Under the pieces are notes generated by a model, which saw only the letters and a program-made list of their open reading frames with translations, ran no database searches and was not told where the DNA came from. Shown in pieces: positions 25,061-50,976 of a stretch of 64,000 nucleotides of DNA; position 1 is the first letter of the stretch; the number at the start of each line of letters is the position of its first letter. The position numbers and the translations under genes are program-made. Origin of the DNA: a virus (lineage: Duplodnaviria > Heunggongvirae > Uroviricota > Caudoviricetes); IMG/VR virus record IMGVR_UViG_3300041405_000148, positions 89,310 to 153,309 of that record; one strand, given 5' to 3'.

Positions 25061-25072
25061 GTAGATGTGCTT

Positions 25073-30476: not shown

Positions 30477-31169
30477 ATGCAAAAGTGGAAAATTATTAAA
30501 GGTACAGAAGCTGATTTTATCAATTGTCCTGATTGGGTGACAGTTGTATTCAAAACATCTGGTACGAATGGCCGTGGGTATGCATCTAAATGGGAGGTTG
30601 GTGCTGATCTGGTGTATGGTGATGCCTCAAAGGGTCCTAATTCACAGAATGCTGATGATGAACTACAAGGCTGGTATCAGGCAGGGTTCCTGATTGGAGA
30701 GCGTGTACCAGTTGAAGATGTAATGGCAATTCCTCGTGGTTGGTTAGTGAATGGTAAATTCACAGAAGATGATCGATATGCTCAGTGGGCAACACAGCAC
30801 GGTTATGAAGTTATTGCAATTCATGATAATGAGTCTCAACCCTCAATTGTGGATGTGATCCTTGAGACTTCTTTAAATGTGCCAGGGCGGTCAGTTCGAC
30901 ATGTTTATAAGAAACTCTGTGAAGAGGTCGGTGAAGTGGGTGATGCATTGTTGGCAATCGCAGAACATGAAGAGCCTGATGAACCACTCGAAGGTGAGAT
31001 TGCTGATGTTATCATTTGTGCAGTGGACCTACTTTTTGTCAGTAAATTTTATGAACGTGAGTGGCATCATAGCCCTGAAGAAGTGGCAGATATCGTTAAA
31101 GATCTTCTTCGAGATCGCGTTAAAGCTAAAACACAGAAGTGGATGGAAAAAGCTCATGAATCATCTTAA
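30477..31169 (+). CDS. MazG-like nucleotide pyrophosphohydrolase domain protein
   Basis: C-terminal EEVGEVGDALLAIAEHEEPDEPLEGEIADVIICAVDLL, a MazG/dUTPase-like EExGE...E.aDv motif pair. Confidence 0.45.
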   Translation: MQKWKIIKGTEADFINCPDWVTVVFKTSGTNGRGYASKWEVGADLVYGDASKGPNSQNADDELQGWYQAGFLIGERVPVEDVMAIPRGWLVNGKFTEDDRYAQWATQHGYEVIAIHDNESQPSIVDVILETSLNVPGRSVRHVYKKLCEEVGEVGDALLAIAEHEEPDEPLEGEIADVIICAVDLLFVSKFYEREWHHSPEEVADIVKDLLRDRVKAKTQKWMEKAHESS

Positions 31170-36071: not shown

Positions 36072-36089
36072 ATTTCAGTATGCTGAACC

Positions 36090-36115
36090 AGACCTCGCTT
36101 CTGCGGGGTCTTTTT
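36090..36115 (+). terminator. rho-independent terminator
   Basis: agacctcgc-ttct-gcggggtct followed by ttttt. Confidence 0.55.
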
Positions 36116-36134
36116 ATGTCTGTCAGGAGAAATC

Positions 36135-36569: not shown

Positions 36570-36579
36570 AGGTGATAAA

Positions 36580-36885: not shown

Positions 36886-36887
36886 AA

Positions 36888-37421
36888 ATGAGAGCACATT
36901 TCCATATCACTTTAGGTGAAGTTGACACTGATCAGTTAATGTTAGGGGCACGTTTGGTTCGTGCTAAATGCACAACCATTGACCTTCATCGTGATACACG
37001 CTCTCAACGTGATCGGATGTTAACTAAATACCAATCTGGAATTGGTCTTGAAACCATGCAGGATGCAGTCCAAAAGCTTGAGAAAGCTGGTTTTAAGGTT
37101 CTTCGTTACAAACTTGAATTGATGTTCACTAATATTGAAGAACTTCTTCAGGAAGAATTCAGCAAAAAGAATTATGGTGAAGTCCATATTAAGACTGAGG
37201 CTAATCACCCAGTTGTAGAAACAGGATTCTTTCAGTTATCATCAAATGCAGAAGAGGTAGATTATCGGTTTTACAATGCCAGGATCTATACAGAATCTGA
37301 TAAAACTCTATTCATGGAAGCTTATCAGCAACTGCTGGATGAAGGTGTACTAATGCGATCTGCTCACTATGAAAAGACAATCTTTGATAGTAAGTATCAT
37401 TTTGATTCTTGGTGGGCGTAA
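36888..37421 (+). CDS. 2H phosphoesterase (LigT/CPDase-like)
   Basis: Two H-x-T-x motifs (HITL near the N-terminus and HIKT about 100 aa later) in a 177-aa protein, the hallmark of the 2H superfamily. Confidence 0.5.
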   Translation: MRAHFHITLGEVDTDQLMLGARLVRAKCTTIDLHRDTRSQRDRMLTKYQSGIGLETMQDAVQKLEKAGFKVLRYKLELMFTNIEELLQEEFSKKNYGEVHIKTEANHPVVETGFFQLSSNAEEVDYRFYNARIYTESDKTLFMEAYQQLLDEGVLMRSAHYEKTIFDSKYHFDSWWA

Positions 37422-37422
37422 G

Positions 37423-37602
37423 ATGAGAACAGATTATCTTGGTAGGGTCATCCCTGAGATGAAAGTCCCTGATAAAAATATCTTGTGCTATCGGTGTCTT
37501 CGGGTGTATAATCTTTCCACTGCACCACGGGTAGCACCTGCAAAGTTGGATGTAAAAGAGCCTTGCTGTCCTAATTGCAAATGTAAAATCTACTACTCTT
37601 AA
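37423..37602 (+). CDS. small Zn-ribbon protein (59 aa)
   Basis: CYRC...CPNCKC. Confidence 0.35.
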   Translation: MRTDYLGRVIPEMKVPDKNILCYRCLRVYNLSTAPRVAPAKLDVKEPCCPNCKCKIYYS

Positions 37603-37777
37603 GGAGTCTTAAAATGTTGATAGCTCTGATGTATGGCTTCTTACACTGCTTTGGTAAGAGACCTCCTACCTCTGACATGGGATTTTGTGCCTTTTTGGGT
37701 GCAGCATTCGAGATGTGTACAATAGATATGGTAATTCTTTTGTCACTTGCATATTAAATCATTGGGAGTAAAAGTAA

Positions 37778-38253
37778 TGACTGAGACTAAAAAATTAACA
37801 CCTTGTCAAGAACTTTCATTGGCAGTGAAACTTGCTGCTGAAGGTCACCTTAACCAAACAGATAAAGGTGGTAAACCTTATATCCTGCATCCTCTTAAAG
37901 TGATGCACTATCTTAAGACAGATGATATGCAACTTATGGCTATTGGTGTCCTTCATGATCACGGCGAAGATTGTGGAGGTACTTCTGAACAGTACCGTTC
38001 CTTAGGTTTTAGTGAAAGAGTTATCAGAGGTATTGACCTGTTGACAAAGAAGGATGGGATCTCTGACGATGAGTACATTGCAGCAATCAAAATGAATGTT
38101 GATGCTGTTAAGGTGAAGCTTGCTGACCTGCGTCACAACACTGATGTTCGTCGTTTGAAAGGTTTATCAGATAAAGACTTGCTTCGTATGCGTAAATATC
38201 ATAATATGCATGTGGAGTTAACAAAAGCACTTAAAATTCATGAGGGGTTATAA
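37778..38253 (+). CDS. small alarmone hydrolase (RelA/SpoT-type HD domain, (p)ppGpp hydrolase-like)
   Basis: AAEGHLNQTDKGGKPYILHPLKV...GVLHDHGED matches the SpoT HD hydrolase signature (H..Q.RK.G.PYI.HPL...LHD..ED). Confidence 0.65.
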
Positions 38254-38645
38254 TGCCAAAATTCAATAAAGGTGATAAAGTTGTACGTACAAATGGAAGC
38301 GCATTCGGATGTAAAGAAAGAGATATCGTAACTGTTGTGAGTTGTAACGATCGTCAGTTATCTCTTGAAGAACATATACATTTCACTTATGACCCAGATT
38401 ATTTTGAATTACTGGTGGAAGAAACGCTACCTGAAGTGCCAGATTCAACACGATATGAATGTGATATGTACCCAGGTCGAGACTTTATCCGTCTAATGAA
38501 AAAGAGAGATAGTGTGATAATTAAGACTGAAGAAGAAGATGAGTTTTCATCTGTCGTATTGTCAGTTGAAACTGCATTGGCTATGGCTTCCGACCTTCGT
38601 CGCATGGCTATGAAGATCAAACGTGAACAAGAAAGTTCTGAATAG
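38253..38645 (+). CDS. hypothetical protein, paralog of the 40914 gene (130 aa)
   Basis: MPKFNKGDKVVR...ASDLRRMAM versus MSKFNIGDVLVR...CHDLRRYAM. Its start overlaps the stop of the alarmone hydrolase gene. Confidence 0.5.
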   Translation: MPKFNKGDKVVRTNGSAFGCKERDIVTVVSCNDRQLSLEEHIHFTYDPDYFELLVEETLPEVPDSTRYECDMYPGRDFIRLMKKRDSVIIKTEEEDEFSSVVLSVETALAMASDLRRMAMKIKREQESSE

Positions 38646-38735
38646 TGTTTTTTCACACAGCACCAAGGATGGTGCTAAACCATTTTATGCAACTAATCTT
38701 AAATAACATTCATCCAAAAGGCCAGCGAGGAAAAT

Positions 38736-39131
38736 ATGGATACCTTACAACAATGGGTCACTCAAGCTTTGAAGTACCCTGTGATGGAAATTTATGGTGG
38801 AAAAGATTTAGCACAAACTAAAGAAGAGAAGCGTGTAATCAAAGTTTGTGAGGATATTTTTAAACTTAGTGCATCTACACCCTCAGAAAGTCTACCGAGA
38901 GTTGAAATGAGTGTAGCTTGGCGAGACTTGGAAGTGGCATTAAAGCTTACCACAACTGTTCCTGTGAAGCCTGAGTACATACAAGAACAAAAAGAAAAGT
39001 TCTTACAATCTGCGAAAGAGTTTATTATACTTCTTGAAACTACTTACAAAAAAGAACAAGTGCTGAAGGTTTACTATGAAAGTTGGAAACTTAAATATCA
39101 AGAAGTAAAAGAATTAGTTTATCACCTATAG
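38736..39131 (+). CDS. hypothetical protein (131 aa)
   Basis: ORF. Confidence 0.45.
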   Translation: MDTLQQWVTQALKYPVMEIYGGKDLAQTKEEKRVIKVCEDIFKLSASTPSESLPRVEMSVAWRDLEVALKLTTTVPVKPEYIQEQKEKFLQSAKEFIILLETTYKKEQVLKVYYESWKLKYQEVKELVYHL

Positions 39132-39142
39132 GAGATTATATA

Positions 39143-39451
39143 ATGGCTAAGTGGAATGAGACACTAGATTTATCTGATGTTTGGGAAAAAAGTAAATGGA
39201 ATGATAAAAATGTTCAGGAGTTAGGTAAAATTATTGCAGCTCGAATTCGAAAACTGAAATCCTTTAATGAAGAAGACTGGATTTTTGTGGGAGACTGTGT
39301 TGAACGGTTTGAAAATGTTTATCCATTTGAGGAGTTTATGGATGATCATGGTGAAATGCCTTACACACCAACTGAAGATTTTGATGAAGCAATGCGAGAG
39401 CTTTATGATTGGGCTGATTATAATCGGGTTTGGGTTAAAATCAATTTTTAA
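39143..39451 (+). CDS. hypothetical protein (102 aa)
   Basis: ORF. Confidence 0.45.
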   Translation: MAKWNETLDLSDVWEKSKWNDKNVQELGKIIAARIRKLKSFNEEDWIFVGDCVERFENVYPFEEFMDDHGEMPYTPTEDFDEAMRELYDWADYNRVWVKINF

Positions 39452-39465
39452 TTGAGGAGAAAATA

Positions 39466-39774
39466 ATGAACGAGAATCTAAATTTAAAACGTGCTGTTGA
39501 AATGCATCGTGAGTTTGCTGCTTTAGATAGCAGCCTTTTTCTTGACTTTGATTTGATTGAGAACATCTGGACACGTGCCTCTCAGGATGAAATTAATTGG
39601 AATAGTGATAATAACGAAGAGGATCTTCAGTCAGGTAATGGTAAAACCTACAGCATTGAAACTTATCGTGGAGCACTTTATGAAGATGATGATTACCTAT
39701 TGATTTTAGGTGATAATGGTTGTGGTGATAAAAGTTATTATCTTTTCCTGAAAGAGCGGGAGCTTTCATCATGA
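39466..39774 (+). CDS. hypothetical protein (102 aa)
   Basis: ORF. Confidence 0.45.
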   Translation: MNENLNLKRAVEMHREFAALDSSLFLDFDLIENIWTRASQDEINWNSDNNEEDLQSGNGKTYSIETYRGALYEDDDYLLILGDNGCGDKSYYLFLKERELSS

Positions 39775-40016
39775 GGTTTCAAATTGTAAAAGAGATAATG
39801 GCCGATGGGTTTGTTAGGTTTTATATAAGAAAAAAGGATTTTCTTTTTTGGGAGAAAGTAAAGTCTTATAAGAATTCGCACTCAGGGGAAATTCTATACT
39901 TTACAGATTTAATGGATGCACAGATCAAAGTTTGTGAGTACGTTGATAAAGAGCTTTCAAAGACTAAATTAGAGTCTGAGGTAGTTTGGGATTCTTTTAC
40001 AAAAGAAGGAGATTAA
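39771..40016 (+). CDS. hypothetical protein (81 aa)
   Basis: ORF. Confidence 0.4.
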   Translation: MRFQIVKEIMADGFVRFYIRKKDFLFWEKVKSYKNSHSGEILYFTDLMDAQIKVCEYVDKELSKTKLESEVVWDSFTKEGD

Positions 40017-40017
40017 A

Positions 40018-40404
40018 GTGAATTTAAATGAAATTTTGGATATACAACCTCAAGTCATTGAAGTTGAATTTGGACCAGAACCAAGTTTACGTCAGTTGAT
40101 TGAGAAATATTACGAGCCACACTTCCCTGAGGATTACAAAGATTATGTGGAAAGTTACCTATGCAAGCTACAAGAAATGGTTTCTGGATCTCCAATTAAA
40201 GTTGGTGATCATGTGCAGGTAGTTTTTGATGCCAGAGAGGGTTCACCTACCTCTTTGGTTAACTATGGTGTTAACCTTGAAGATGTTGGCGTTGTAACCA
40301 GTTTAGTTAAAGATGAATTATTCCCTGTTAGTGTTGATTTTGGCAATGGAAAAGAAATTGCTTTTACAGAGAAAGAACTGAGGAAAATTTATGTTGAAGT
40401 ATAA
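40018..40404 (+). CDS. hypothetical protein (128 aa)
   Basis: ORF with a GTG start. Confidence 0.4.
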   Translation: MNLNEILDIQPQVIEVEFGPEPSLRQLIEKYYEPHFPEDYKDYVESYLCKLQEMVSGSPIKVGDHVQVVFDAREGSPTSLVNYGVNLEDVGVVTSLVKDELFPVSVDFGNGKEIAFTEKELRKIYVEV

Positions 40405-40897
40405 AGTTGGTGATCTGATTGAAGCTGCTAAAAGTGGAGAAGTGCATGTTATAGCACACTGCTGTAATTGCCTTCATTCTATGGCGAGCGGGATCGCCCC
40501 TTTAATTAAAGAGGCTTTCCCTTACGCTTATGAAGCTGACCTAGAAACTGCAAAAGCAGATCCTAAGAAATTAGGTACAGTAAGTTATGGCATAGCAGAG
40601 CCTGAAGATTGGACAGACACAGTATATTGTCCTGATGTATTTAATCTTTATGGTCAATACAGCTACACCAAACGTAGAACCGGTGGCAGGGATCTTAATT
40701 ACGATGCACTTTATGACTCTCTTGTTGCAATGACTAAGAAGTTAAATGAGTGGGGAACCGAAAAACTGGAGACACGTATTGGTTTACCTATGCTTGGAGC
40801 AGGACTCGCAAATGGTGATTGGGATATCATAGAAATGATGATCAAGAAGACCTTGTGCTCTGCTGGATTTAATGTTACTATCTACACACTAAATTAA
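40391..40897 (+). CDS. macro domain protein (ADP-ribose binding/hydrolase)
   Basis: HVIAHCCNCLHSMASGIAPLIKEAFP and LPMLGAGLANGDW match the macro-domain signature. Confidence 0.6.
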   Translation: MLKYKVGDLIEAAKSGEVHVIAHCCNCLHSMASGIAPLIKEAFPYAYEADLETAKADPKKLGTVSYGIAEPEDWTDTVYCPDVFNLYGQYSYTKRRTGGRDLNYDALYDSLVAMTKKLNEWGTEKLETRIGLPMLGAGLANGDWDIIEMMIKKTLCSAGFNVTIYTLN

Positions 40898-40913
40898 AGA
40901 GGGGTAAAATATT

Positions 40914-41339
40914 ATGAGTAAATTTAATATTGGTGATGTCTTAGTTCGAGCTAAGTGGCATAACACTGATCCAAATTTGGTGGGTACTGTGAGTCAAGCT
41001 GATATTTATGGTGTTGGTGAGCTAATCATTACAGAAAGTAACACAAAGGACTACCCAGTTGGTTATGTTTATCTTTATTCACCAGATGCATGGAATCTTA
41101 AAGAAGAACAAGAAGAGGAAAAACTTCCAGAAATGCCTGATGAAGTGACTTACAGGGGTTCAGGACGTGAGTTGACAGTGGCACCTTATCATACCAGTCT
41201 AGGTGATATCTTTATTGGGATACGTACTGACGGAGGGTATGGGGTTCAGACTATGCACATGGATGCAGAAGATGTATTATCTCTTTGCCATGATCTTCGT
41301 CGCTACGCTATGGATGCTATCCGTAACCGTGATAAATAA
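40914..41339 (+). CDS. hypothetical protein, paralog of the 38253 gene (141 aa)
   Basis: See the 38253 entry. Immediately follows the macro-domain gene. Confidence 0.5.
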   Translation: MSKFNIGDVLVRAKWHNTDPNLVGTVSQADIYGVGELIITESNTKDYPVGYVYLYSPDAWNLKEEQEEEKLPEMPDEVTYRGSGRELTVAPYHTSLGDIFIGIRTDGGYGVQTMHMDAEDVLSLCHDLRRYAMDAIRNRDK

Positions 41340-41351
41340 GAGGGTACACAT

Positions 41352-41510
41352 ATGCAAGTAAGATATTACTACTGCAAGTCCTGTGGTTATGAAGAGTTTA
41401 ATATTTGGGCAGGTTATGCACGTACTGTTGGCAATGGTATGCTATTTTATTGCCCTGCTTGTAATAAAGAGAACTTTGTTGATGTTGAGGAGGAGGAGGA
41501 GGAGTAATGT
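41352..41510 (+). CDS. small Zn-ribbon protein (about 52 aa)
   Basis: CKSCG...CPACN with an acidic EEEEEE tail. Confidence 0.35.
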
Positions 41511-41839
41511 CTTATAGCAAGATGTACATTGCTGTATTGGATGAAGCACCGGATTACATGACTCCAACTCTGGTAGCACATTCTGTTCTTGCTGCTCACC
41601 TGAAATTTCAGGATGAAGAAATTTATAAAAAGTGGTTGACGGACTCATTCAGGAAGGTTACATTACGTGTCAACAGAAGAGAGTTCGACAAAATCAGAAG
41701 TACACTGGTTTGTCACGAAGGGCATGAAAACACGATCTGCAATGCAGAAGCAAGTTGCTTGGTTGTGATGCCAGTAGAAGCTGAATCTATTCCAAATGTT
41801 CTTAAATTTGGTAAACTGTGGAAACCAAAACAAGCTTAA
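41507..41839 (+). CDS. PTH2-like (peptidyl-tRNA hydrolase 2 family) protein
   Basis: KMYIAVLDEAPDYMTPTLVAHSVLAAH...W...FRKVTLRV...C..LVVMP matches the PTH2 pattern in length and motifs. Confidence 0.35.
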   Translation: MSYSKMYIAVLDEAPDYMTPTLVAHSVLAAHLKFQDEEIYKKWLTDSFRKVTLRVNRREFDKIRSTLVCHEGHENTICNAEASCLVVMPVEAESIPNVLKFGKLWKPKQA

Positions 41840-41850
41840 GGAGAAAATAA

Positions 41851-42252
41851 ATGACATTGGTAGAAAAACTTAAACAAGACCAACTGAATGCACGTAAAGA
41901 AGGTGACACTGCTAAAGCGTCTAACCTGACTTTCCTGCTGGGACAACTTTCACAGAAGAAGACACCAACTGACCAAGATGCAATTGACCTGATCCGTGCA
42001 ACAGTTAAATCCACTAAAGCTGCATATAAAGATGAACTGCCTACATCTGTATCATATGACATTCAGATCATGGAGAGTTATCTTCCAAGTGAATTGACAG
42101 ATGATGAAATTTATACTTTCCTGGATTCCGCTCGTGATTCAGGGGATAAGATCACTAAAGCTTATATGGGTAAAATCAATCTGTTTGCTAAAGCTCAGGG
42201 CAAGATTGTGAACAATGCCAATGCTTCTCTGATTCTCCAAGCTTATATTTAA
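41851..42252 (+). CDS. GatB/YqeY domain protein
   Basis: LKQDQLNARKEGD...LLGQL...YLPSELTDDEI...MGKINLFAKAQGK...ASLIL matches the YqeY family. Confidence 0.55.
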   Translation: MTLVEKLKQDQLNARKEGDTAKASNLTFLLGQLSQKKTPTDQDAIDLIRATVKSTKAAYKDELPTSVSYDIQIMESYLPSELTDDEIYTFLDSARDSGDKITKAYMGKINLFAKAQGKIVNNANASLILQAYI

Positions 42253-42255
42253 GAG

Positions 42256-42963: not shown

Positions 42964-42965
42964 AG

Positions 42966-43211: not shown

Positions 43212-43220
43212 GGAGTAATT

Positions 43221-44018: not shown

Positions 44019-44993
44019 ATGACGCATCACTTCGGTTTTCCAATGCTGGACATTATCGTCCTTGTATCGGTTCTTATTTTATCAATTGGAGTTGACTTCC
44101 TAGGTCATAAAGATGGAAAAGAAATTGGGATTAAATCTGCTCTAGCTTGGTCAGGTTTTTGGATTGCACTAGCCTTAGGCTATTATGCCTTTGTGTGGGT
44201 TGAATATGGAAAAGAATTTGCATCTATGTTTCTTAGCGGTTATGTGCTTGAGAAATCATTGAGTGTTGATAACCTGGTTGTTTTTGCAGCTATCTTTGCA
44301 AGCTTTGGTATTCGTAGTACAGCACTGCAACATAAGATTCTGCTCTTGGGGATTGCAGGTGCAATTATTTTCCGAGGTATCTTTGTTGCACTAGGTACGG
44401 AATTGTTTCATCTTCACTGGTCAGTTCAGATCTTTTTTGGTATAATCGTAGCATGGTCTGCGTATGCAATCATTAAAGGTGGTGATGAAGAGGAAGAGGT
44501 CGATTATACAAAGCATTGGGCTGTTAAGTGGGTTAATAAGATTATCCCAGTAGGTGGCACTAACGGTGACAAGCTAATCACAAAAGTCGGTAAAAAATGG
44601 TATGCTACTCCTGCACTCGTTTGTGTGGCTGTTGTTGAGCTGACAGATATTATGTTCTCACTAGATAGTGTACCTGTGGTTATCTCAGTGACCCAAGAAC
44701 CTCTGCTAGTTTATTCAGCAATGCTGTTTGCAATCTTAGGTCTTCGTGCTCTGTATTTTGTACTCAGTGTTGCGATGAAGTACTTGGTTCATCTGGAAAA
44801 GGCTGTAGCTCTTGTTCTAGTGTTTGTTGGTGGTAAGATGATTTACCATGCAATGAATGAACAGTTCCACCTGAGCACCTTTGATATCTCTGTTAACGCA
44901 AGTTTGTATGTTGTACTGGGCACACTTGCAGCAGGCGTTATTGCGAGTCTGGTGTTTCCAAACAAGGAACCTGAAGAAGAAACTATCGTATAA
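44019..44993 (+). CDS. terC: TerC family integral membrane protein
   Basis: Multi-TM protein with the EKSLSVDNLVVF signature of the TerC family. Confidence 0.8.
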   Translation: MTHHFGFPMLDIIVLVSVLILSIGVDFLGHKDGKEIGIKSALAWSGFWIALALGYYAFVWVEYGKEFASMFLSGYVLEKSLSVDNLVVFAAIFASFGIRSTALQHKILLLGIAGAIIFRGIFVALGTELFHLHWSVQIFFGIIVAWSAYAIIKGGDEEEEVDYTKHWAVKWVNKIIPVGGTNGDKLITKVGKKWYATPALVCVAVVELTDIMFSLDSVPVVISVTQEPLLVYSAMLFAILGLRALYFVLSVAMKYLVHLEKAVALVLVFVGGKMIYHAMNEQFHLSTFDISVNASLYVVLGTLAAGVIASLVFPNKEPEEETIV

Positions 44994-45001
44994 TCAACAA
45001 A

Positions 45002-45024
45002 AGCCCCCATCAAGGGGCTTTTTA
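45002..45024 (+). terminator. rho-independent terminator
   Basis: agcccc-catcaa-ggggct followed by ttttt. Confidence 0.7.
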
Positions 45025-45042
45025 ATTGAGAAGGGGCTTGCA

Positions 45043-45216
45043 TGGCTAAGTATATTGAGGTAACATTGGTTGTAGAAATTCCAGATGTTGCAGAAGAAAA
45101 AGATATCAAAGATTTCGTAGATGTTCATTTTGCAGAATGCAATAGTATGCAGATGAACAATCCGATTCAGGATAATTATGAAATCGTAGAGCATTACTGG
45201 GAAATTTCCCAATAAT
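45043..45216 (+). CDS. small hypothetical protein (57 aa)
   Basis: ATG ORF (MAKYIEVTLVVEIPD...). Confidence 0.3.
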
Positions 45217-45243
45217 TAGATTCTTAGTATAAGAGGAGCTAAA

Positions 45244-45447
45244 ATGAAAAAGTTTTTTAACATTTTGTGGGTGATTTATACATGCGTTGCTGAGATTGTT
45301 GGTACATTTATCATTATCATGTTTATTCTTTCTTTGTTTGGTCATGGTAAGTTTGAGGTTGGTCACGGTAATTGGCAGCAATGTTTCGGTGATTGCCAAA
45401 AAGTTGAACAAAACTCTGTTAATCCTGTAAAAGAAGAGGTAAAATAA
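45244..45447 (+). CDS. small membrane protein (67 aa)
   Basis: TM helix. Confidence 0.4.
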   Translation: MKKFFNILWVIYTCVAEIVGTFIIIMFILSLFGHGKFEVGHGNWQQCFGDCQKVEQNSVNPVKEEVK

Positions 45448-45938
45448 TGACTCAAGAATATGTTAAATGTCTTAGTAAATTTTCTGGTGTAACTGTGGGT
45501 GAAGTTTATCCTATTGTTCAGCGTGAAGAGAATTCTTTTTGTCTAATCAATGATGCTGGCAAACAAGATGTTTGGTGGCTAGCTGATGGTGAGTTTGAAT
45601 TAGTTGATGGGCCTGAAGAAGTTAAGGAAGAGAGTAAAGCCACTCGTGAAATGAAGTTCTCAACTAAAGAAGGATCTGCTGTTGTCCATTATAAATCAGG
45701 TCAGACTTTCCATATCAGTTATCTGACACATATGGTAGTGGCAGGAAGTAGAGTTCAGGTAACACGTGAGTATACTCAGGATGGTATAGAGTTTTCTCAA
45801 ACTGCATACATCCCTTTTGAAAAGTTCGGTAAGGTTATTTGTCAAGCTTATAATGGAGAGTTAGAAATAACACTTTCCAAAGATGGAAAACTGAGTTATC
45901 CTACAGTTGTAGAAAAGAAAGAAATGTTCTTTAACTAA
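45447..45938 (+). CDS. hypothetical protein (163 aa)
   Basis: ORF. Confidence 0.5.
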   Translation: MTQEYVKCLSKFSGVTVGEVYPIVQREENSFCLINDAGKQDVWWLADGEFELVDGPEEVKEESKATREMKFSTKEGSAVVHYKSGQTFHISYLTHMVVAGSRVQVTREYTQDGIEFSQTAYIPFEKFGKVICQAYNGELEITLSKDGKLSYPTVVEKKEMFFN

Positions 45939-45963
45939 TTAAATAAACTAAGAGGAAATAAAC

Positions 45964-46671
45964 ATGACTAAACTATCACTTGAAAAACGTACCGAAAATG
46001 TTAAACTATCTCTGGAGAAAGCTGGTGTTCAGCGTAAAGATATCTGTGTCCGTGTAGGTCTGGCACTTGATAAATCTGGTTCAGCTGAAATCTTTTATCA
46101 CAACGGTCAGTTTGAAGAGTTGGTTGACCGACTGCTGCCAGTCAGCGCAAATATGGATGATGATGGCACGATTGACACTTGGCTGTTCCACAATGAATCT
46201 ATGGAAGTTGGTCCAGCTACACCTAAAAATTATGGTAGCTTTATCTCCAAAGAAGTTATGCAGGGTAAATACCGCAGTGATTGGGGTGGCACAGAATATG
46301 CACCAGTTATGAAAGATATTCATCACTTTTACTTTGGTTATGAGCAGAAGAGAAGTTTCTTTGGTTTCGGTGGTGGCAAGAAAGCTGTAACTGATTCAAA
46401 TATCCCTGCTTTGGTGTTCTTCATCACAGATGGCGCTAACAGCGACCATTCTGAGACCATCAAACTGCTTGACAGCATTAAAGATGAGCCTGTATACTGG
46501 ATGACAGTTGGTGTTGGCCGGGAAGACCAGTTTACTTTCCTGAAACAGATTGCTTCCCGTTATGATAATGTTGGTTTTGTTAATTTCAGTAATCTGAACA
46601 TCAGTGATGATGAAATGTATAATGCCATTCTGGATGGTGAACTGGCTGAGTGGATTAATAAAGTTTGCTAA
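45964..46671 (+). CDS. vWA domain protein (ter-associated, TerY-like)
   Basis: MIDAS residues: LDKSGSA (DxSxS), TEYAP (T), FITDGANSD (DG). Confidence 0.6.
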   Translation: MTKLSLEKRTENVKLSLEKAGVQRKDICVRVGLALDKSGSAEIFYHNGQFEELVDRLLPVSANMDDDGTIDTWLFHNESMEVGPATPKNYGSFISKEVMQGKYRSDWGGTEYAPVMKDIHHFYFGYEQKRSFFGFGGGKKAVTDSNIPALVFFITDGANSDHSETIKLLDSIKDEPVYWMTVGVGREDQFTFLKQIASRYDNVGFVNFSNLNISDDEMYNAILDGELAEWINKVC

Positions 46672-46958
46672 GGAGCACTAATATGACTAAAGAAGAATAC
46701 CTAGAGCAACTGAAGGTTGGTGATACCCTTACACGCTTCTTTCATGGCGCAGGATTTGTTACCCAAGGTGAAGAAATGGAGGTTGTTCATCTAACAGATT
46801 CTCGCATCTGGTTAGAAGAAAAAATGGAAAATCAGGTTGACTATAAAGCAGATAGTGTTTATAGTTATGACAGAAAAACAGGTAAACAATATACTGATCA
46901 ATTTAGCTTTGGTATGTATCACACTATTGAACTGCCAAACTCTAAAGCCCCCGACTAA
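46665..46958 (+). CDS. hypothetical protein (97 aa)
   Basis: ORF. Confidence 0.4.
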   Translation: MLRSTNMTKEEYLEQLKVGDTLTRFFHGAGFVTQGEEMEVVHLTDSRIWLEEKMENQVDYKADSVYSYDRKTGKQYTDQFSFGMYHTIELPNSKAPD

Positions 46959-46987
46959 TAATTTTTTAACAAAAGAGGAAATAAAAT

Positions 46988-47569
46988 ATGTCACTTAATC
47001 TGCAAAAAGGTTCTTCCCTGAAACTGACTAAAGATGATGGTAAAACTGCCCTAAATCGTATTCGTGTAGAGCTGTCTTGGAACCCTAACGAAGGATCTTC
47101 GCAGTATTCGTTTGACTTGGATGTAATCGGTGCAGTTTGTAAGAATGAGAATCTGCAAGCTGTTTCTGGTGAACATGTTGCTTTCTTTAATCAGAAGAAT
47201 ACTGCGGCTATCCAGGTATCCCCTGATAATACAACTGGTGCTGGCGATGGTGTAGATGAGTTCCTGGATATTACTCTGAACAATGTTCCGGTAGAAGGTG
47301 ACCGAATCCCAGTCCTGGTATGTATTTATGGTGCTCGTGGCAAGAATCAGAGTTTTTCTCAGGTAGATGGTGCAACAGTTGTGCTGCGTGATCTGGATAA
47401 CGGTAAAGTAGTTGGTTCTTGTAACATCTCTGAGAAAGGCTCATCTACAGATGAATCTCTGCTGGTAGGTGTTTTTGAGAAGCAGTCTGATGGCTCTTTT
47501 GTTTACAATCAGGTGAACGAGTTTTACAATAAGAGTTTTGAAGAGTGGATTGGTGTTTTCACTAACTAA
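46988..47569 (+). CDS. terD: TerD-domain protein
   Basis: MSLNLQKGSSLKLTKD...RVELSWNP...DLDVIGAV...GDG. This is the TerD/CABP fold signature. Confidence 0.75.
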   Translation: MSLNLQKGSSLKLTKDDGKTALNRIRVELSWNPNEGSSQYSFDLDVIGAVCKNENLQAVSGEHVAFFNQKNTAAIQVSPDNTTGAGDGVDEFLDITLNNVPVEGDRIPVLVCIYGARGKNQSFSQVDGATVVLRDLDNGKVVGSCNISEKGSSTDESLLVGVFEKQSDGSFVYNQVNEFYNKSFEEWIGVFTN

Positions 47570-47587
47570 GAGCAAATAAATAGATTA

Positions 47588-47614
47588 AGGCCCTTGTTTA
47601 GGAGGGCCTGTTTT
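47588..47614 (+). terminator. rho-independent terminator
   Basis: aggccc-loop-gggcct followed by gtttt. Confidence 0.5.
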
Positions 47615-47639
47615 AACAAAGATAAAGGAGATACTTAAC

Positions 47640-48230
47640 ATGGCAATTACTTTGGAAAAAGGTTCTAAACTCTCTCTGGATAAGTTCCAGGCATCAGACC
47701 TTAAAGTCCTTCGTGTAGAAATGACGTGGGATGCACCAGAAACCACAGGTTCAAAGTTCAAAACTTATGACTACGATTTGGATGTTATTGCTTTCATTAT
47801 TGATGAGAACAAAAAAGCTGTAAATAACTATAAACATTTTTGCTTCTTTGGACAGCAAGTCACCCCAGCAATCGAGAGTTCTGGTGATGACCTGAATGGT
47901 GAAGATGGTGGTGAATCCCTTCTGATCACACTGGATAATGTGCCAAAGAATGGTGTACAGATCCCTATCATCGTTGACTTACACAAGGCTAAAGAGCGTA
48001 AACAAAATCTGTCTCAGATGAAATCAGGTAACCTGCGTATCCTGAACCATGACACAGATGAGCTACTGGCTGAAGTAAACATGAGTCAGTTTGCAAGCAA
48101 CGAAACATCTTTCCTGTTTGCTTTCATCAACCGTACTGCAACAGGTTTTGAGGTAGAAAGTGCTCCAACAGGGTTTGATAAAAACATTCAGGATTGGGTT
48201 GATCTTTATGGAATTGACTTGAGCAAGTAA
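47640..48230 (+). CDS. terD: TerD-domain protein (second copy)
   Basis: MAITLEKGSKLSLDKF...RVEMTWD...DYDLDVIAF...GEDGG. Confidence 0.75.
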   Translation: MAITLEKGSKLSLDKFQASDLKVLRVEMTWDAPETTGSKFKTYDYDLDVIAFIIDENKKAVNNYKHFCFFGQQVTPAIESSGDDLNGEDGGESLLITLDNVPKNGVQIPIIVDLHKAKERKQNLSQMKSGNLRILNHDTDELLAEVNMSQFASNETSFLFAFINRTATGFEVESAPTGFDKNIQDWVDLYGIDLSK

Positions 48231-48250
48231 TCTTTAAGTGGTAATATCAA

Positions 48251-48273
48251 TGGGTGACAATAAGTCACCCATA
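48251..48273 (+). promoter_or_regulatory. perfect hairpin atgggtgac-aataa-gtcacccat (terminator or regulatory stem)
   Basis: 9-bp perfect stem. The following T-tract is weak. Confidence 0.35.
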
Positions 48274-48290
48274 TTAATTTCAGGAGTCTT

Positions 48291-49178
48291 ATGAGCACCG
48301 ATTATAAAAACCTTTTTAATACAAAGAAAGATTATTCTAATCTGTTTTCTAATAAGGAAAATACCCAATCACAACCTAAGCAGGAAAGAAACATGGCATA
48401 TAAAAATTTATTTGATAATGTTGTCAATGAAACAAAACCTGCAAGGGTTCAAACAACATTACCTCAAAAAGTTGTTGACCCACGAGTTGCTGATATACAA
48501 GCAATTGACCCTAAGATCAGCACACATGCAGTCATCGAATGGCTTGAAGCTTTTGATGACAACATGAAAAAGTTAACCCAAACTAATCATGGACTCTCTC
48601 AAAGAGAACTGGATTTGGCTATGGAATTCACTGATGGAAGACTCTGTGTCCAAGAGCTTTTTAATCAGATCAAGGCAACAGTTGCAACGCTGAAAGGGCC
48701 AGAAAAGAAAACAGGGTTTCTATCAAAGCTCTTTAACTCAGATCAAGAGTTTAAATTAAGTCAAGATTTGATCACACAAGTTATTCAGACAATTAGAAAA
48801 CTATTAGAAGATTTCAAAAATAAGTCTAAATATAATAATAGTATGTTTATTAAATCTGAGATGCGTAGGATCGAATCAAACATTTTTGATTTGAAAAGTG
48901 AATTGGAGTGTGCTAGAGTAGCTGCAACTTACTTAGTCAATCAAGATGATTTTAAAGGTGCAGCAAGACTTGAAAAGGTTAAGCAACTCTCAGGGTTAGT
49001 GAATGTCTCAGAGTTGCAATTAAAAAATACTTACAATCTTCTTGAGAAAGATATGGAAGCATATGAGAACTTAAAAGACGTGACAGTACCTTTTTTGTAT
49101 GCTAAGATCCAAGGATTAATGAGTAGTACTTTAGATTCTGAAGCACTCAATGTTATTAACGATATAAATAAACTCTGA
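48291..49178 (+). CDS. TelA-like (toxic anion resistance) family candidate (295 aa)
   Basis: All-helical protein with N-terminal Y(K/S)NLF repeats. Position is between terD and the HAD/PRTase genes. Sequence match to TelA not verified. Confidence 0.3.
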   Translation: MSTDYKNLFNTKKDYSNLFSNKENTQSQPKQERNMAYKNLFDNVVNETKPARVQTTLPQKVVDPRVADIQAIDPKISTHAVIEWLEAFDDNMKKLTQTNHGLSQRELDLAMEFTDGRLCVQELFNQIKATVATLKGPEKKTGFLSKLFNSDQEFKLSQDLITQVIQTIRKLLEDFKNKSKYNNSMFIKSEMRRIESNIFDLKSELECARVAATYLVNQDDFKGAARLEKVKQLSGLVNVSELQLKNTYNLLEKDMEAYENLKDVTVPFLYAKIQGLMSSTLDSEALNVINDINKL

Positions 49179-49189
49179 GGAGAGACACT

Positions 49190-50269
49190 ATGTCATACGG
49201 CAACCTTTTTACAACAGAAACAAAAACTGAATCACAGGCTACTAAGCCAACTAGTTTTGAACAGTCAGTTAAATCACTCCCTGTCCTTAAGGATGCAGAA
49301 GGTAAAGTTTACCCAATGGAGTTGAAAGACATTCAGAATTTTGGTATTGTTAAAAACTCAAAACAATCTGAAATCAATAACCAAATTCTGTCAAAGACAT
49401 TGGTCGCAGATAGTGGTGTAATGGCCCAGGGTTTTACTCAGATCATGGCGCTTTCCCAAAAAGTAGATATTGGATCTCTCTCTGATGGTAAAGTTGGCCT
49501 GTTTAAATCTATTCGTAATAAGTTTATTGATCGAAAAGCTGAGGTTAAAGCACAGTTTACAACTGTTCGGAGTCAGATCACAACCATTGCTTCGGAACTA
49601 AAGAACAACATTGTAGAGATGCAGAAAGAAGGTCAGTGGCTTGACCAAATGTACAAAGTCAATCTTGAAGAAGTACGTATGTGGGAACAAAACAAGGTTT
49701 TGGTTAATGAAGCCTTTACTACAGCAGAAGAATATTTGAAACATCTTGTTGACAATGGAGCACCAATAGAGCAAATTGAAGAGACACGGATGAAAGTTAA
49801 TGCGTTGAGCAAGCAAAGTGATAAAGTTAATAAAATGCATCAGCTTAGTGCTATTGCAGCGCCTGAGATCAGGATGATGCAGGTAACAAATTTCAACAAT
49901 ATTAATAAGTTTAATGACATTATTGAATTAACTATCCCATATTGGGAAAAGAAAATGTCACTTGCACTAAATGCTGAGAATCAGCGCAAGCAGATCGCAC
50001 AAGCAAAAATTATGGATGACTTCACTAATGATTTAATCAAAGAAACTGCTAAACAGGTTGGACAAAACATGGTAGAGTCAGCTAAAGCAAACCAGCGTGG
50101 TATTGCTGATGTAGATGTAATGGTAGAGGCAACAAACGTGATCATCAACTCTATTAAAGAGGTTGTTGAGATTGATAAAGAAGGGAATAATACCCGTAAA
50201 GAGAACGCCAAGAAGATTGAAAAATCGTTGGTTGACATGGAAGATACTCTACGGTCAGTACTTTCTTAA
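49190..50269 (+). CDS. TelA-like protein (359 aa)
   Basis: Size and helical character fit TelA/KlaA. N-terminal YGNLF motif shared with the upstream gene. Sits in ter context. Confidence 0.4.
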   Translation: MSYGNLFTTETKTESQATKPTSFEQSVKSLPVLKDAEGKVYPMELKDIQNFGIVKNSKQSEINNQILSKTLVADSGVMAQGFTQIMALSQKVDIGSLSDGKVGLFKSIRNKFIDRKAEVKAQFTTVRSQITTIASELKNNIVEMQKEGQWLDQMYKVNLEEVRMWEQNKVLVNEAFTTAEEYLKHLVDNGAPIEQIEETRMKVNALSKQSDKVNKMHQLSAIAAPEIRMMQVTNFNNINKFNDIIELTIPYWEKKMSLALNAENQRKQIAQAKIMDDFTNDLIKETAKQVGQNMVESAKANQRGIADVDVMVEATNVIINSIKEVVEIDKEGNNTRKENAKKIEKSLVDMEDTLRSVLS

Positions 50270-50289
50270 AAATACTTAGGAGAACTAAA

Positions 50290-50937: not shown

Positions 50938-50976
50938 CGTAACCTTGCTGCAACTTAACTACACAGGAATTAAATA

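What the first reader, a model, noticed from the sequence alone, without database searches (positions are those of the whole stretch)
36888..42252. Cluster of small enzymes typical of counter-defence or RNA-repair functions (2H phosphoesterase, (p)ppGpp hydrolase, macro domain, PTH2-like, YqeY)
Five recognisable small catalytic domains lie within 5.4 kb. There is a 2H phosphoesterase with two HxTx motifs, the fold of LigT/CPDases and of phage enzymes that cleave cyclic-oligonucleotide signals or repair tRNA with 2',3'-cyclic ends. There is a SpoT-type HD alarmone hydrolase, a macro domain (ADP-ribose removal), a PTH2-like protein and a YqeY/GatB-like protein (tRNA-linked). Each targets a nucleotide second messenger, an ADP-ribosyl modification, or damaged tRNA, all known currencies of abortive-infection systems. 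Together with the NADAR gene at 4229 and the two MazG-like genes, this looks like an anti-defence island or a tRNA/translation-rescue module.
Basis: partly seen in the sequence, partly recalled or inferred. Interest (0 to 1): 0.75.

Follow-up and report, generated by a model that had tools for sequence, protein, structure and literature searches.

The report
Phage orphan-antitoxin and tRNA-rescue gene cluster

The parts
36888..37421 (+). ORF A (177 aa): orphan homolog of a non-canonical 'AbiEi' class, the upstream partner of AbiEii nucleotidyltransferase toxins. It is not a demonstrable 2H phosphoesterase.
   Evidence: PADLOC AbiEi PDLC02277/02279, E 3e-11, full length. The phage-only profile reaches P0280 (E 1.7e-4 in 1.84e9 proteins), which lies upstream of an AbiEii gene. 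Invariant residues H6, T8, M44, T46, R73, K75, E77, E98, H100, S118, E162, D167, D173 are shared across 34 diverse members. AF2 pLDDT 87, tandem ferredoxin-like halves. No 2H match.
37423..37602 (+). Small zinc-ribbon protein (59 aa) directly after ORF A.
   Evidence: Pfam Phage_zn_bind_2, E 2.7e-16. The same ORF A + Zn-ribbon pair occurs in close relatives L008 and L011.
37777..38253 (+). HD-domain small alarmone hydrolase (an alternative TTG start lies at 37747). Aph1/PbcSpo-like; likely substrates are (pp)pApp and 3'-pyrophosphorylated tRNA.
   Evidence: PDB 7smg Aph1, E 5.9e-21. Metal and catalytic residues H38, H60-D61, E64-D65, D117, N121 are present. Aph1 signature: D29, D123, R126, K140, Y141 are kept and R96 is replaced by A103. 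66% identity to PVP-SE1 gp220.
38253..38645 (+). Unknown 130-aa protein, paralog of 40914-41339; follows the HD gene with a 1-nt overlap.
   Evidence: phrog_4317; BLASTP between the paralogs E 1.4e-5.
40391..40897 (+). Macrodomain protein (168 aa) of the ALC1-like class, SCO6735/BT1257 subclass. Candidate DNA (thymidine) or protein ADP-ribose hydrolase.
   Evidence: PDB 5e3b, E 3.5e-9. Q89 aligns with the catalytically required Gln85 of SCO6735, K94 with Lys89, and the mobile loop YTKRRTGGR is basic; Lys34 is replaced by Ser. PADLOC DarG E 6.9e-8. 54% identity to PVP-SE1 gp232.
40914..41339 (+). Unknown 141-aa protein, paralog of 38253-38645; follows the macro gene.
41507..41839 (+). Pth2-fold protein (110 aa) of a highly conserved phage family. 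The Pth2 Lys/Asp pair is not conserved.
41851..42252 (+). YqeY/GatB-tail-like protein (133 aa).
   Evidence: Pfam YqeY, 36 bits against a cut-off of 27. PDB 1ng6 and 8xjg. Conserved in FBKp34 (56%) and in L008 (86%).
36090..36111 (+). Intrinsic-terminator-like hairpin upstream of the block. Together with the hairpin at 44999-45022 it brackets a possible ~9-kb transcription unit, 36135-44993.
   Evidence: 9-bp stem with 6 GC pairs, then a T run. No comparably strong terminator lies between the two.
44999..45022 (-). Terminator-like hairpin just after TerC.
4229..4843 (+). DUF6939 protein, possibly NADAR-like (DarG1-like).
   Evidence: Pfam DUF6939, 36.9 bits. NADAR-DarT1 E 0.0087, below threshold. 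No PDB sequence hit.
28006..28494 (+). Fusion of a Lar-like zinc ribbon with a MazG-like NTP pyrophosphohydrolase.
   Evidence: Pfam Lar_restr_allev, 30.3 bits; phrog_4856 E 1.5e-31.
30477..31169 (+). Protein with a C-terminal MazG-like pyrophosphatase domain.
   Evidence: phrog_1247 E 8e-25; Pfam MazG E 0.002.
44019..51810 (+). Context: a Ter gene set (TerC, vWA/TerF-like, two TerD, TelA, HAD-like, ComF-like PRTase). In other Stephanstirmvirinae it is interleaved with the ORF A and macro genes.

Best explanation
The stretch is part of the accessory (early/middle) gene block of a Stephanstirmvirinae-like virulent phage, between a UvrD-type helicase gene and a Ter gene set. It holds several independent, individually acting counter-defence genes. 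It is not one multi-step pathway.

Three of them copy the enzymatic 'antidote' partner of bacterial toxin-antitoxin abortive-infection systems but lack the toxin gene, so they are orphan antitoxins.
1. ORF A belongs to a family that in bacteria lies immediately upstream of AbiEii/MenT-type nucleotidyltransferase toxins, which block translation by extending tRNA 3'-CCA ends. In the phage it would neutralise such toxins. It might do so by binding the toxin, or enzymatically through its conserved His-x-Thr / His-x-Lys / Arg-x-Lys-x-Glu constellation. Which of these applies is inferred, not shown.
2. The HD protein is a small alarmone hydrolase. It would degrade (pp)pApp and remove the 3'-pyrophosphate that toxSAS toxins put on tRNA.
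3. The SCO6735-type macrodomain would strip ADP-ribose from thymidine in phage DNA after DarT2-type attack, or from protein.

The Pth2-fold protein and YqeY are translation/tRNA-linked by fold and by context. They plausibly act on the same battlefield, the tRNA acceptor end, but with unknown chemistry.

What is shown here: the homologies, conserved residues, genomic contexts and domain fusions. What is inferred: all activities and all phenotypes.
For: ORF A:
- PADLOC AbiEi hits, E 3e-11.
- 5 of 5 bacterial-context family members lie 3-204 nt upstream of, or overlapping, a PDLC02308-type AbiEii gene. Loci: L014, L016-18, L020, L021, L024.
- No AbiEii-like gene was found among ten otherwise unannotated window ORFs of 122-341 aa, including ORF A's upstream neighbours.
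- Family members are fused to a RelA/SpoT HD domain (P0169, TIGR00691 E 7.5e-29), Nudix (PF00293), a HAM1-like domain (weak NCBIfam hit) and, by eye only, a MazG-like domain (P0269).
- The HD fusion mirrors the ORF A / HD neighbourhood in the window.

HD:
-.
- PVP-SE1 SAH neutralises CapRel, PhRel2, FaRel2, PhRel and FaRel (PMC7229694, Table 1).
- SAHs restore pyrophosphorylated tRNA (bioRxiv 10.1101/2021.04.30.441581).

Macro:
-.
- SCO6735 removes dT-ADPr and rescues from DarT (PMC9411070).
- AdfM is a precedent (PMC13309987); AdfN is the NADAR precedent (PMC11825919).

Pth2-fold protein; located in the tRNA gene cluster of a T5-like phage.

Gene order ORF A ... macro, PTH2-like, YqeY ... TerC is kept in a close relative.
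Against: - No biochemical or genetic test was possible.
- ORF A is only remotely related to the AbiEii-linked bacterial members. Pairwise BLAST is weak, so the link rests on profiles and shared motifs.
- The neutralisation mechanism of this AbiEi class is unstudied. Canonical AbiEi/MenA antitoxins act by inducing toxin auto-phosphorylation and have a different fold.
- The macro protein lacks Lys34 of SCO6735.
- The HD protein lacks Aph1 R96.
- The Pth2-fold protein lacks the Pth2 Lys/Asp pair.
- In Phapecoctavirus and KP2025, ORF A and macro flank Ter-linked HAD/PRTase genes, which suggests a different, metabolic role.
- Clustering significance is marginal and post hoc.
- That PVP-SE1 gp220 is the SAH tested in the literature is my inference. 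I did not read the first 50 kb of that genome.
Confidence: 0.55

Rival explanations
1. ORF A is a 2H (LigT/CPDase-like) phosphoesterase that cleaves cyclic-oligonucleotide immune signals or heals 2',3'-cyclic tRNA ends. Together with the other four genes it forms an RNA-repair / second-messenger-degrading module.
For: The N-terminal motif G-x-F-H-x-H-I-T-L of the family is nearly identical to LigT motif 2 (F-H-P-H-I-T-L). Two of 34 family members give weak Pfam hits to LigT_PEase (E 0.0094) and 2_5_RNA_ligase2 (E 0.0068). The model has two pseudo-symmetric halves, each starting with a His-bearing strand. Fusions to nucleotide pyrophosphatases fit a nucleotide-directed enzyme.
Confidence: 0.12
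2. ORF A and the macrodomain are accessory enzymes of the phage's Ter system. They would process the phosphoribosyl or nucleoside-like metabolite made by the Ter-linked PRTase and HAD phosphatase. They would not be anti-toxin factors.
For: In Escherichia phage tuntematon and Klebsiella phage KP2025 the order is ORF A - HAD - PRTase - macro - (1-2 small ORFs) - TerC, with tight spacing. In the window all of these lie within 15 kb. Macrodomains bind ADP-ribose-like ligands. One bacterial AbiEi-like/AbiEii pair lies about 2 kb from a TelA gene (L021).
Against: ORF A occurs in Rheinheimera Barba phages with no Ter genes in the 14.5 kb read around it, and in many phage contigs without them. In the window and in FBKp34 the HAD/PRTase pair is about 10 kb or more away from macro. 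The bacterial partners of the family are AbiEii toxins in 5 of 5 cases.
Confidence: 0.13
3. There is no common theme. This is an ordinary mosaic stretch of unrelated accessory genes in a large phage. The HD and macro enzymes would serve host take-over: damping the stringent response, or reversing the phage's own ADP-ribosylation. They would not serve counter-defence.
For: Gene content varies between relatives. HD is absent in L008. PTH2-like was not found in the FBKp34 and Phapecoctavirus stretches read, and no other Stephanstirmvirinae record appears among the genera that account for its 196 phage-collection hits. YqeY differs in lineage in KP2025. FBKp34 carries a PARP-like ADP-ribosyltransferase between macro and YqeY, which would give a macrodomain a self-regulatory role. 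Clustering p is 0.02-0.06, post hoc. 11 of the 17 genes in the interval have no assignable function.
Against: Close orthologs or structural neighbours of two members have demonstrated toxin-neutralising activity (PMC7229694, PMC9411070). The HD-ORF A fusion protein argues that at least those two act in a related process. No PARP homolog was found in window positions 25-64 kb.
Confidence: 0.2

Closest known systems
AbiE (AbiEi/AbiEii) and MenAT toxin-antitoxin / abortive-infection systems (DUF1814 nucleotidyltransferase toxins)
   Same: ORF A matches PADLOC AbiEi models PDLC02277/02279. Bacterial members of its family occupy the upstream, antitoxin position next to AbiEii genes.
Phage small alarmone hydrolases (PVP-SE1 SAH, PbcSpo subfamily), ATfaRel, and Aph1 (p)ppApp hydrolase
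   Same: HD fold with the HD and ED motifs. 66% identical to PVP-SE1 gp220. 5 of 6 Aph1 specificity residues are kept, including D24 and R119, whose joint mutation lets Aph1 hydrolyse ppGpp.
   Different: R96 of Aph1 is Ala here. Activity and substrate range are untested. It is not next to a (p)ppApp synthetase toxin.
SCO6735 / BT1257 / TARG1 / DarG2 macrodomains, and phage AdfM
   Same: ALC1-like macrodomain. Gln at the position of the catalytic Lys, as in SCO6735. Lys89 equivalent present, and a long basic mobile loop.
   Different: It lacks the Lys34 equivalent. It has no DarT-binding C-terminal domain as DarG2 has. AdfM of chimalliviruses is a Lys-type (K78) DarG2-like macrodomain, a different subclass.
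Archaeal/eukaryotic peptidyl-tRNA hydrolase Pth2 (and DUF2000/Atu0240)
   Same: Same fold over 104 of 110 residues. The His of the AQVAHA helix, Gly86 and Pro102 are conserved.
   Different: The GKGK lysine aligns with Met, the DAG aspartate with a variable aromatic or His, and T88 with an invariant Glu. The family has its own invariant set (D12, D16, H25, H31, K50, E74, C84).
2H phosphoesterases (LigT/ThpR, CPDase)
   Same: One F-H-x-H-I-T-L motif identical in pattern to LigT motif 2. Pseudo-twofold architecture.
   Different: The second motif is HxK. No global profile or fold similarity could be shown.
AdfN (phage NADAR anti-DarT1 factors)
   Same: The gene at 4229-4843 gives a sub-threshold NADAR-DarT1 hit over residues 18-134.
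   Different: Its significant Pfam family is DUF6939. No structural or catalytic-residue check was done.

Membership tests
2H phosphoesterase superfamily | Two H-x-T/S-x motifs | tested here: not met
   Only H6-I-T-L is present. The second conserved His motif is H100-I-K-T, and it is H-x-K/P-x across the family.
2H phosphoesterase superfamily | Sequence-profile match to a 2H family (LigT_PEase, 2_5_RNA_ligase2, CPDase, AKAP7) | tested here: not met
   No Pfam hit at E<=10 for the window protein. 2 of 34 relatives give E about 0.007-0.009. hhalign aligns 14 columns at 10.7%; the permuted test aligns 9-10 columns.
2H phosphoesterase superfamily | Bilobed LigT-like fold | tested here: not met
AbiEi, PADLOC class PDLC02277/02279 (partner of PDLC02308 AbiEii) | Full-length HMM match | tested here: met
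   E 3e-11 and 3.4e-11, covering residues 5-176 of 177. All family-invariant residues are present.
AbiEi, PADLOC class PDLC02277/02279 (partner of PDLC02308 AbiEii) | Adjacent AbiEii (DUF1814) toxin gene | tested here: not met
   The downstream neighbours are a 59-aa Zn ribbon, a 47-aa ORF and the HD gene. No PADLOC AbiEii hit among ten other window ORFs of 122-341 aa. Hence 'orphan'. For bacterial members the feature is met in 5 of 5 loci.
AbiEi, PADLOC class PDLC02277/02279 (partner of PDLC02308 AbiEii) | Neutralises AbiEii toxicity | not testable with these tools
   Needs co-expression and phage plating assays.
Canonical AbiEi/MenA3 (COG5340: wHTH + C-terminal domain) | AbiEi_1-4 Pfam domains, or structural similarity to PDB 6Y8Q / 1ZEL | tested here: not met
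RelA/SpoT-homolog small alarmone hydrolase (SAH) | HD-domain hydrolase fold with His, HD, ED, Asp and Asn catalytic/metal residues | tested here: met
   H38, H60-D61, E64-D65, D117 and N121 align with Aph1 H33, H53-D54, E57-D58, D110 and N114. TIGR00691 E 2.6e-10.
Aph1-type (p)ppApp-specific hydrolase | Signature residues D24, R96, D116, R119, K133, Y134 (PMC10083569) | tested here: inconclusive
   Five of six are present (D29, D123, R126, K140, Y141). R96 is replaced by A103. Substrate specificity is not testable here.
ALC1-like macrodomain, SCO6735 subclass | Gln at the TARG1-K84/DarG-K80 position, Lys89, extended basic mobile loop, Lys34 | tested here: inconclusive
   Q89, K94 and the loop YTKRRTGGR are present. 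Lys34 is replaced by Ser. Pfam Macro is only E 0.023, but the PDB and PADLOC hits are significant.
DarG2 antitoxin | Macrodomain plus a C-terminal DarT-binding domain; adjacent darT gene | tested here: not met
   The protein is 168 aa, a macrodomain only. The NCBIfam DarG hit covers model positions 98-147 of 338. No darT gene is adjacent.
Peptidyl-tRNA hydrolase Pth2 | Pth2 fold | tested here: met
Peptidyl-tRNA hydrolase Pth2 | Catalytic Lys18 and Asp86 (S. solfataricus numbering). Their identity as catalytic is from my own recollection of Fromant et al. 2005, not checked in a held paper. Both are invariant in the five solved Pth2 sequences. | tested here: not met
   hhalign aligns the Lys with M18 (nearly invariant Met) and the Asp with H70 (variable). 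Pfam PTH2 scores 19.2 bits, below the cut-off of 23.
YqeY (PF09424) | Pfam match above the gathering threshold | tested here: met
   36 bits against 27. PDB YqeY hits at E 0.0017 and 0.0024.
NADAR (gene at 4229-4843) | Profile match to a NADAR family, with catalytic residues | tested here: inconclusive
   NADAR-DarT1 scores 16 bits against a cut-off of 27, E 0.0087. DUF6939 scores 36.9 bits.

The most novel reading that the evidence does not exclude
ORF A defines a phage-borne anti-AbiE factor. It would be an orphan copy of a previously uncharacterised, enzyme-like class of AbiEii/MenT partner proteins, with H-x-H-x-T, E-x-H-x-K and R-x-K-x-E motifs. It would neutralise tRNA-3'-end nucleotidyltransferase toxins catalytically, for example by trimming the added nucleotides or destroying the NTP substrate together with its fused or neighbouring pyrophosphatases, rather than by the auto-phosphorylation route known for canonical AbiEi/MenA. 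With the SAH and the macrodomain, the phage would then carry three or more orphan enzymatic antitoxins in one gene block. Two of them (ORF A and SAH), and perhaps the Pth2-fold protein, would defend the tRNA acceptor end.
Probability: 0.3. Interest if true: 0.8.

Novelty: new variant of a known kind. Interest (0 to 1): 0.6.

Why it matters
Phages copying the enzymatic antitoxin of a defence system ("orphan antitoxins") is a recently recognised counter-defence strategy; AdfN, AdfM and phage SAHs are examples. This locus would add AbiE/MenT-type nucleotidyltransferase toxins to the list of systems countered in that way. I found no phage counter-measure to them in the held literature.

It also points to an unstudied class of AbiEii partner proteins with an enzyme-like active site. 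That class is present in bacteria and in many phages, and in phages it is often fused to Nudix, HD, MazG-like or HAM1-like domains.

It further flags a very widespread and highly conserved phage Pth2-fold family whose active site differs from Pth2. Each prediction can be tested directly with simple toxicity-rescue and plating assays.

The part of the finding that is ordinary: SAH, macrodomain, PTH2 and YqeY genes in large virulent phages have been catalogued before (PMC7824862, PMC7229694).

Tried and rejected
- Megablast of the 5.5-kb region against the phage collection found nothing. The relatives had to be found through the DNA polymerase protein.
- Foldseek against afdb50 was not available, so the ORF A model was compared only with PDB libraries.
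- ORF A: PDB sequence searches with the single sequence and with the profile gave only noise. NCBIfam gave noise. Pfam gave nothing.
- A circular-permutation hypothesis for a 2H fold (LigT alignment duplicated in tandem) extended the match by nothing.
- A "GS-linker concatenation" trick to scan many ORFs in one Pfam call worked, but it produced artefactual Serglycin hits that must be ignored.
- I looked for a paper stating the Pth2 catalytic residues and could not find one in the held library. That point rests on my memory, plus the invariance seen in five solved Pth2 sequences.
- I searched for literature linking DUF1814 toxins to 2H-like antitoxins: none.
- I considered that each enzyme gene is paired with a paralogous small 'partner' gene (38253 after HD, 40914 after macro, 42256 after YqeY). 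Only the first two are detectably related, and the pattern is not kept where HD is missing. I dropped it as a mechanism.
- I considered a phage-borne complete AbiE TA pair and rejected it: no AbiEii-like ORF was found in the window.
- The 4229 protein gave no PDB sequence hit to NADAR structures.

Full report
WHAT THE WINDOW IS. The 64-kb window has no near-identical match in the phage collection. Its family-A DNA polymerase (61289-63505) is 77% identical to that of Klebsiella phage vB_KpM_FBKp34 (Stephanstirmvirinae, 141 kb). Primase/helicase, TerC, TerD, TelA and a ComF-like PRTase follow in the same order as in that phage. The window has no tRNA genes. The finding lies in a block of 24 tightly packed + strand genes (35046-44993). 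Intergenic gaps run from -14 to +90 nt, and each gene has a Shine-Dalgarno-like sequence. A strong terminator-like hairpin lies at 36090-36111 and another at 44999-45022, with nothing comparable between them. The genes 36135-44993 may therefore form one transcription unit; this is an inference. The finding's coordinates are exact: 36888 is an ATG and 42252 ends a stop codon.

THE FOUR CALLS THAT HOLD.

(i) HD protein (37777-38253; an alternative TTG start lies at 37747).
- Its best solved relative is 7smg, the (p)ppApp hydrolase Aph1 (E 5.9e-21). Rel/SpoT hydrolase domains and small alarmone hydrolases follow.
- NCBIfam spoT_relA gives E 2.6e-10.
- The metal and catalytic residues are present.
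- Of the six residues that Ahmad et al. identify as the (p)ppApp-specificity signature (D24, R96, D116, R119, K133, Y134; PMC10083569), five are conserved: D29, D123, R126, K140, Y141. R96 is Ala.
- The protein is 66% identical to PVP-SE1 gp220. This is very probably the 'PVP-SE1 SAH (PbcSpo)' that neutralised all five toxSAS toxins tested by Jimmy et al. (PMC7229694). That identification is my inference.
- SAHs of this kind also restore tRNA whose CCA end was pyrophosphorylated by toxSAS.

(ii) Macrodomain (40391-40897).
- Pfam Macro is sub-threshold.
- PDB searches give SCO6735 (E 3.5e-9), 2afc, BT1257 and OARD1/TARG1. PADLOC gives DarG (E 6.9e-8).
- Gln89 aligns with Gln85 of SCO6735, the residue that replaces the TARG1/DarG catalytic lysine and is required for activity. 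Lys94 aligns with Lys89. The mobile loop is long and basic. Lys34 is not conserved.
- SCO6735 removes thymidine-linked ADP-ribose from DNA and rescues cells from DarT (PMC9411070).
- A phage macrodomain anti-DarT2 factor, AdfM, was reported in chimalliviruses in 2026 (PMC13309987). AdfM is of the Lys type.

(iii) PTH2-like protein (41507-41839).
- Pfam PTH2 is below threshold.
- Profile-profile comparison with five solved Pth2 sequences gives E 3.4e-6. In that alignment the GKGK lysine and the DAG aspartate, both invariant in the solved Pth2s, correspond to a nearly invariant Met and a variable aromatic/His. By my recollection these two residues are the catalytic pair. Thr88 corresponds to an invariant Glu.
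- The family is large (more than 1270 proteins) and unusually conserved: 60-70% identity between T5-like, Otagovirus and other phages.
- In the T5-like phage BSP22A the gene sits in the middle of the tRNA gene array.
- The fold and a tRNA link are supported. Canonical Pth2 chemistry is doubtful.

(iv) YqeY (41851-42252) passes Pfam's threshold and hits the two solved YqeY proteins.

THE CALL THAT FAILS, AND WHAT THE ORF IS INSTEAD. ORF A (36888-37421) has one H-x-T-x motif (H6-I-T-L). The second conserved histidine motif is H100-I-K-T.
- No 2H family is hit in Pfam even at E<=10.
- Nothing is found in PDB by sequence or by profile.
- Profile-profile comparison with LigT/ThpR aligns only the motif F-H-x-H-I-T-L with LigT motif 2 (14 columns, 10.7%). 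A test for circular permutation adds nothing.
- Two of 34 relatives give E of about 0.007-0.009 to 2H Pfam models.
- The 2H idea therefore survives only as a motif-level resemblance.

The PADLOC library gives a clear answer instead: two 'AbiEi' models, E 3e-11, over the full length. A profile search of 1.84 billion representatives finds 147 family members. They share H-x-H-x-T, M-x-T, R-x-K-x-E, E-x-H-x-K, S-x-N, E...D-S-N...D-x-W-W. The window protein has every invariant residue.

I examined genomic context for every member I could look up.
- In all five bacterial-type loci the family member lies immediately upstream of a gene that PADLOC calls AbiEii, model PDLC02308, with E values from 7e-22 to about 3e-112. 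The loci are L014 (two AbiEii copies), L016-18, L020, L021 and L024 (a truncated copy).
- In phage-like contigs the family member stands alone, as in the window, in its close relatives and in Barba phages.
- In two other phage-like contigs it lies next to an ADP-ribosylglycohydrolase gene.
- Elsewhere it is fused to a nucleotide pyrophosphatase: a RelA/SpoT HD domain (P0169, on a 76-93-kb contig with NAMPT, Nudix, NAD kinase and RNA ligase genes), Nudix, a HAM1-like domain (weak NCBIfam hit), and a domain that looks MazG-like by eye only (P0269).
- No AbiEii-like ORF was found among ten otherwise unannotated window ORFs.

AbiEii/MenT toxins are DUF1814 nucleotidyltransferases that extend tRNA 3'-CCA ends and stop translation. 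The studied antitoxins (COG5340 AbiEi/MenA3, and MenA1) act by inducing toxin auto-phosphorylation (PMC11375011; bioRxiv 10.64898/2026.01.19.700257). ORF A's family is a different, unstudied partner class. I found no report of a phage-encoded counter to AbiE in the held literature.

IS IT A MODULE? Relatives show both conservation and flux.
- A metagenomic contig whose ORF A is 95% identical keeps the order UvrD ... ORF A, Zn ribbon ... macro (63%), PTH2-like (84%), YqeY (86%), TerC. It has a 104-aa ORF where the HD gene is.
- FBKp34 has the HD gene (61%) on the opposite strand about 5 kb upstream of its macro gene. It has macro and YqeY homologs, a PARP-like gene between them, and no ORF A or PTH2-like gene in the 42 kb read.
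- Phapecoctavirus tuntematon and Klebsiella phage KP2025 have ORF A - HAD - PRTase - macro - TerC in a row.
- The PTH2-like gene has 196 hits in the phage collection. The genera that account for them are T5-like, Otagovirus, Pakpunavirus and Acinetobacter phages, with no other Stephanstirmvirinae record among them.
- A post hoc simulation gives p of 0.02-0.06 for the observed clustering.
- I conclude that the UvrD-to-Ter interval is an accessory-gene hotspot in which counter-defence genes accumulate and are exchanged. It is not a fixed operon with one function.
- The single strong hint of functional coupling is the HD-ORF A fusion protein, which mirrors their adjacency here: they are separated by the 59-aa Zn ribbon and a 47-aa ORF.

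MECHANISM PROPOSED. Three genes copy enzymatic antitoxins without the toxin.
- ORF A would act against AbiEii/MenT-type toxins.
- The SAH would act against toxSAS: (pp)pApp producers and tRNA pyrophosphorylators.
- The macrodomain would act against DarT2-type DNA ADP-ribosylation.
- The DUF6939/NADAR-like gene at 4229 would be a fourth, against DarT1, if its weak NADAR match is real.
- Two of these toxin classes attack the tRNA 3' end. The Pth2-fold protein and YqeY (a GatB-tail-like domain, by my own knowledge linked to rpsU in bacteria) fit a 'protect the acceptor end / keep translation going' theme, but their chemistry is unknown.

The homologies, motifs, contexts and fusions are shown. Every activity is inferred. 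I put 0.55 on this overall reading and about 0.3 on the sharper claim that ORF A is a catalytic anti-AbiE factor.

RIVALS.
- The 2H/cyclic-nucleotide reading (0.12).
- A role for ORF A and macro in the Ter-linked PRTase/HAD metabolite pathway (0.13). The Phapecoctavirus synteny supports it. It is weakened by Ter-less phages that carry ORF A, and by the 5/5 AbiEii contexts.
- 'No theme, ordinary mosaic / host take-over' (0.2).

COMPARISON WITH WHAT IS KNOWN, AND VERDICT. HD-alarmone hydrolases, Macro, NADAR, PTH2 and Ter genes in large phages were catalogued computationally by Iyer et al. (PMC7824862). SAH, NADAR and macrodomain counter-defence now have experimental precedents. For those genes the finding is a new member of known kinds.

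Three things are new here:
- the re-assignment of the '2H' ORF to an AbiEii-partner family with enzyme-like motifs and pyrophosphatase fusions;
- the observation that the phage Pth2-fold family has replaced the Pth2 Lys/Asp pair;
- the picture of several orphan antitoxin-like enzymes side by side.

I rate this a new variant of a known kind, with interest 0.6.

Noticed in passing
window 44019-51810: A nearly complete Ter gene set in a phage: TerC, vWA/TerF-like (45964-46671), two TerD (46988-47569, 47640-48230), a 295-aa unknown, TelA (49190-50269), HAD-like hydrolase (50290-50937) and ComF-like PRTase (50977-51810; Pfam PRTase_3, E 6e-52).
   Followed up: partly
L002 (tuntematon) 8926-12784; L007 (KP2025) 8926-13141: In Phapecoctavirus-like phages the ORF A homolog, the HAD-like hydrolase, the PRTase, the macrodomain and TerC are contiguous. 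This suggests a possible link between ORF A / macro and the Ter-associated metabolite pathway.
   Followed up: partly
L001 (FBKp34) 15700-16986: FBKp34 encodes a PARP-like ADP-ribosyltransferase (WGR + PARP domains) between its macro and YqeY genes. No homolog was detected in window positions 25-64 kb.
   Followed up: partly
window 38253-38645 and 40914-41339; 42256-42963 and 43733-43978: There are two small paralog pairs. The first pair (phrog_4317) each directly follows an enzyme gene (HD, macro). The N-terminus of 42256 resembles 43733. Function unknown.
   Followed up: partly
L022 (Logan SRR12613063 contig) 1-10681: The HD-ORF A fusion protein P0169 lies on a 76-93-kb phage-like contig next to NAMPT, Nudix, NAD kinase and RNA ligase genes. 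That neighbourhood looks like an NAD+-salvage / RNA-repair counter-defence set.
   Followed up: no
L019 4001-5476, and the contig of P0212: In two phage-like contigs an ORF A-family gene is flanked by a cupin/ARD-like gene and an ADP-ribosylglycohydrolase (PF03747) gene.
   Followed up: no
L014 10333-12229: Next to a bacterial AbiEi-like/AbiEii/AbiEii locus there are an RNA ligase gene and an HD/KTI12/AAA_33 (PNK-like) gene. This is a possible RNA-repair pair beside a tRNA-targeting toxin system.
   Followed up: no
L004 (Salmonella phage BSP22A) 3995-4330: The PTH2-like homolog (71% identical) is embedded in the tRNA gene array of this T5-like phage, between tRNA-Ser and tRNA-His. The window itself has no tRNA genes.
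   Followed up: partly
window 28006-28494: One ORF fuses a Lar-like restriction-alleviation zinc ribbon to a MazG-like NTP pyrophosphohydrolase.
   Followed up: partly
window 32278-33484: An HNH_3 homing-endonuclease gene (32278-32820) overlaps the listed start of a 254-aa ORF (32720-33484). By eye that ORF has C5-cytosine methyltransferase-like motifs (FDGSGIMG, FPDC, ENPVG), but it gave no Pfam or PADLOC hit.
   Followed up: partly
window 8400-25100: There is a long block of small leftward (- strand) ORFs with reversed GC skew. It is flanked by rightward blocks and contains several stretches without ORFs of 45 aa or more (about 8.3-9.8 kb and 21.9-22.9 kb).
   Followed up: no
window 36888-37421 (model residues 31-37): The only low-confidence segment of the ORF A model (pLDDT<50) covers the invariant stretch I31-D32-L33 and the loop after it. 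This may be a mobile active-site or binding loop.
   Followed up: no
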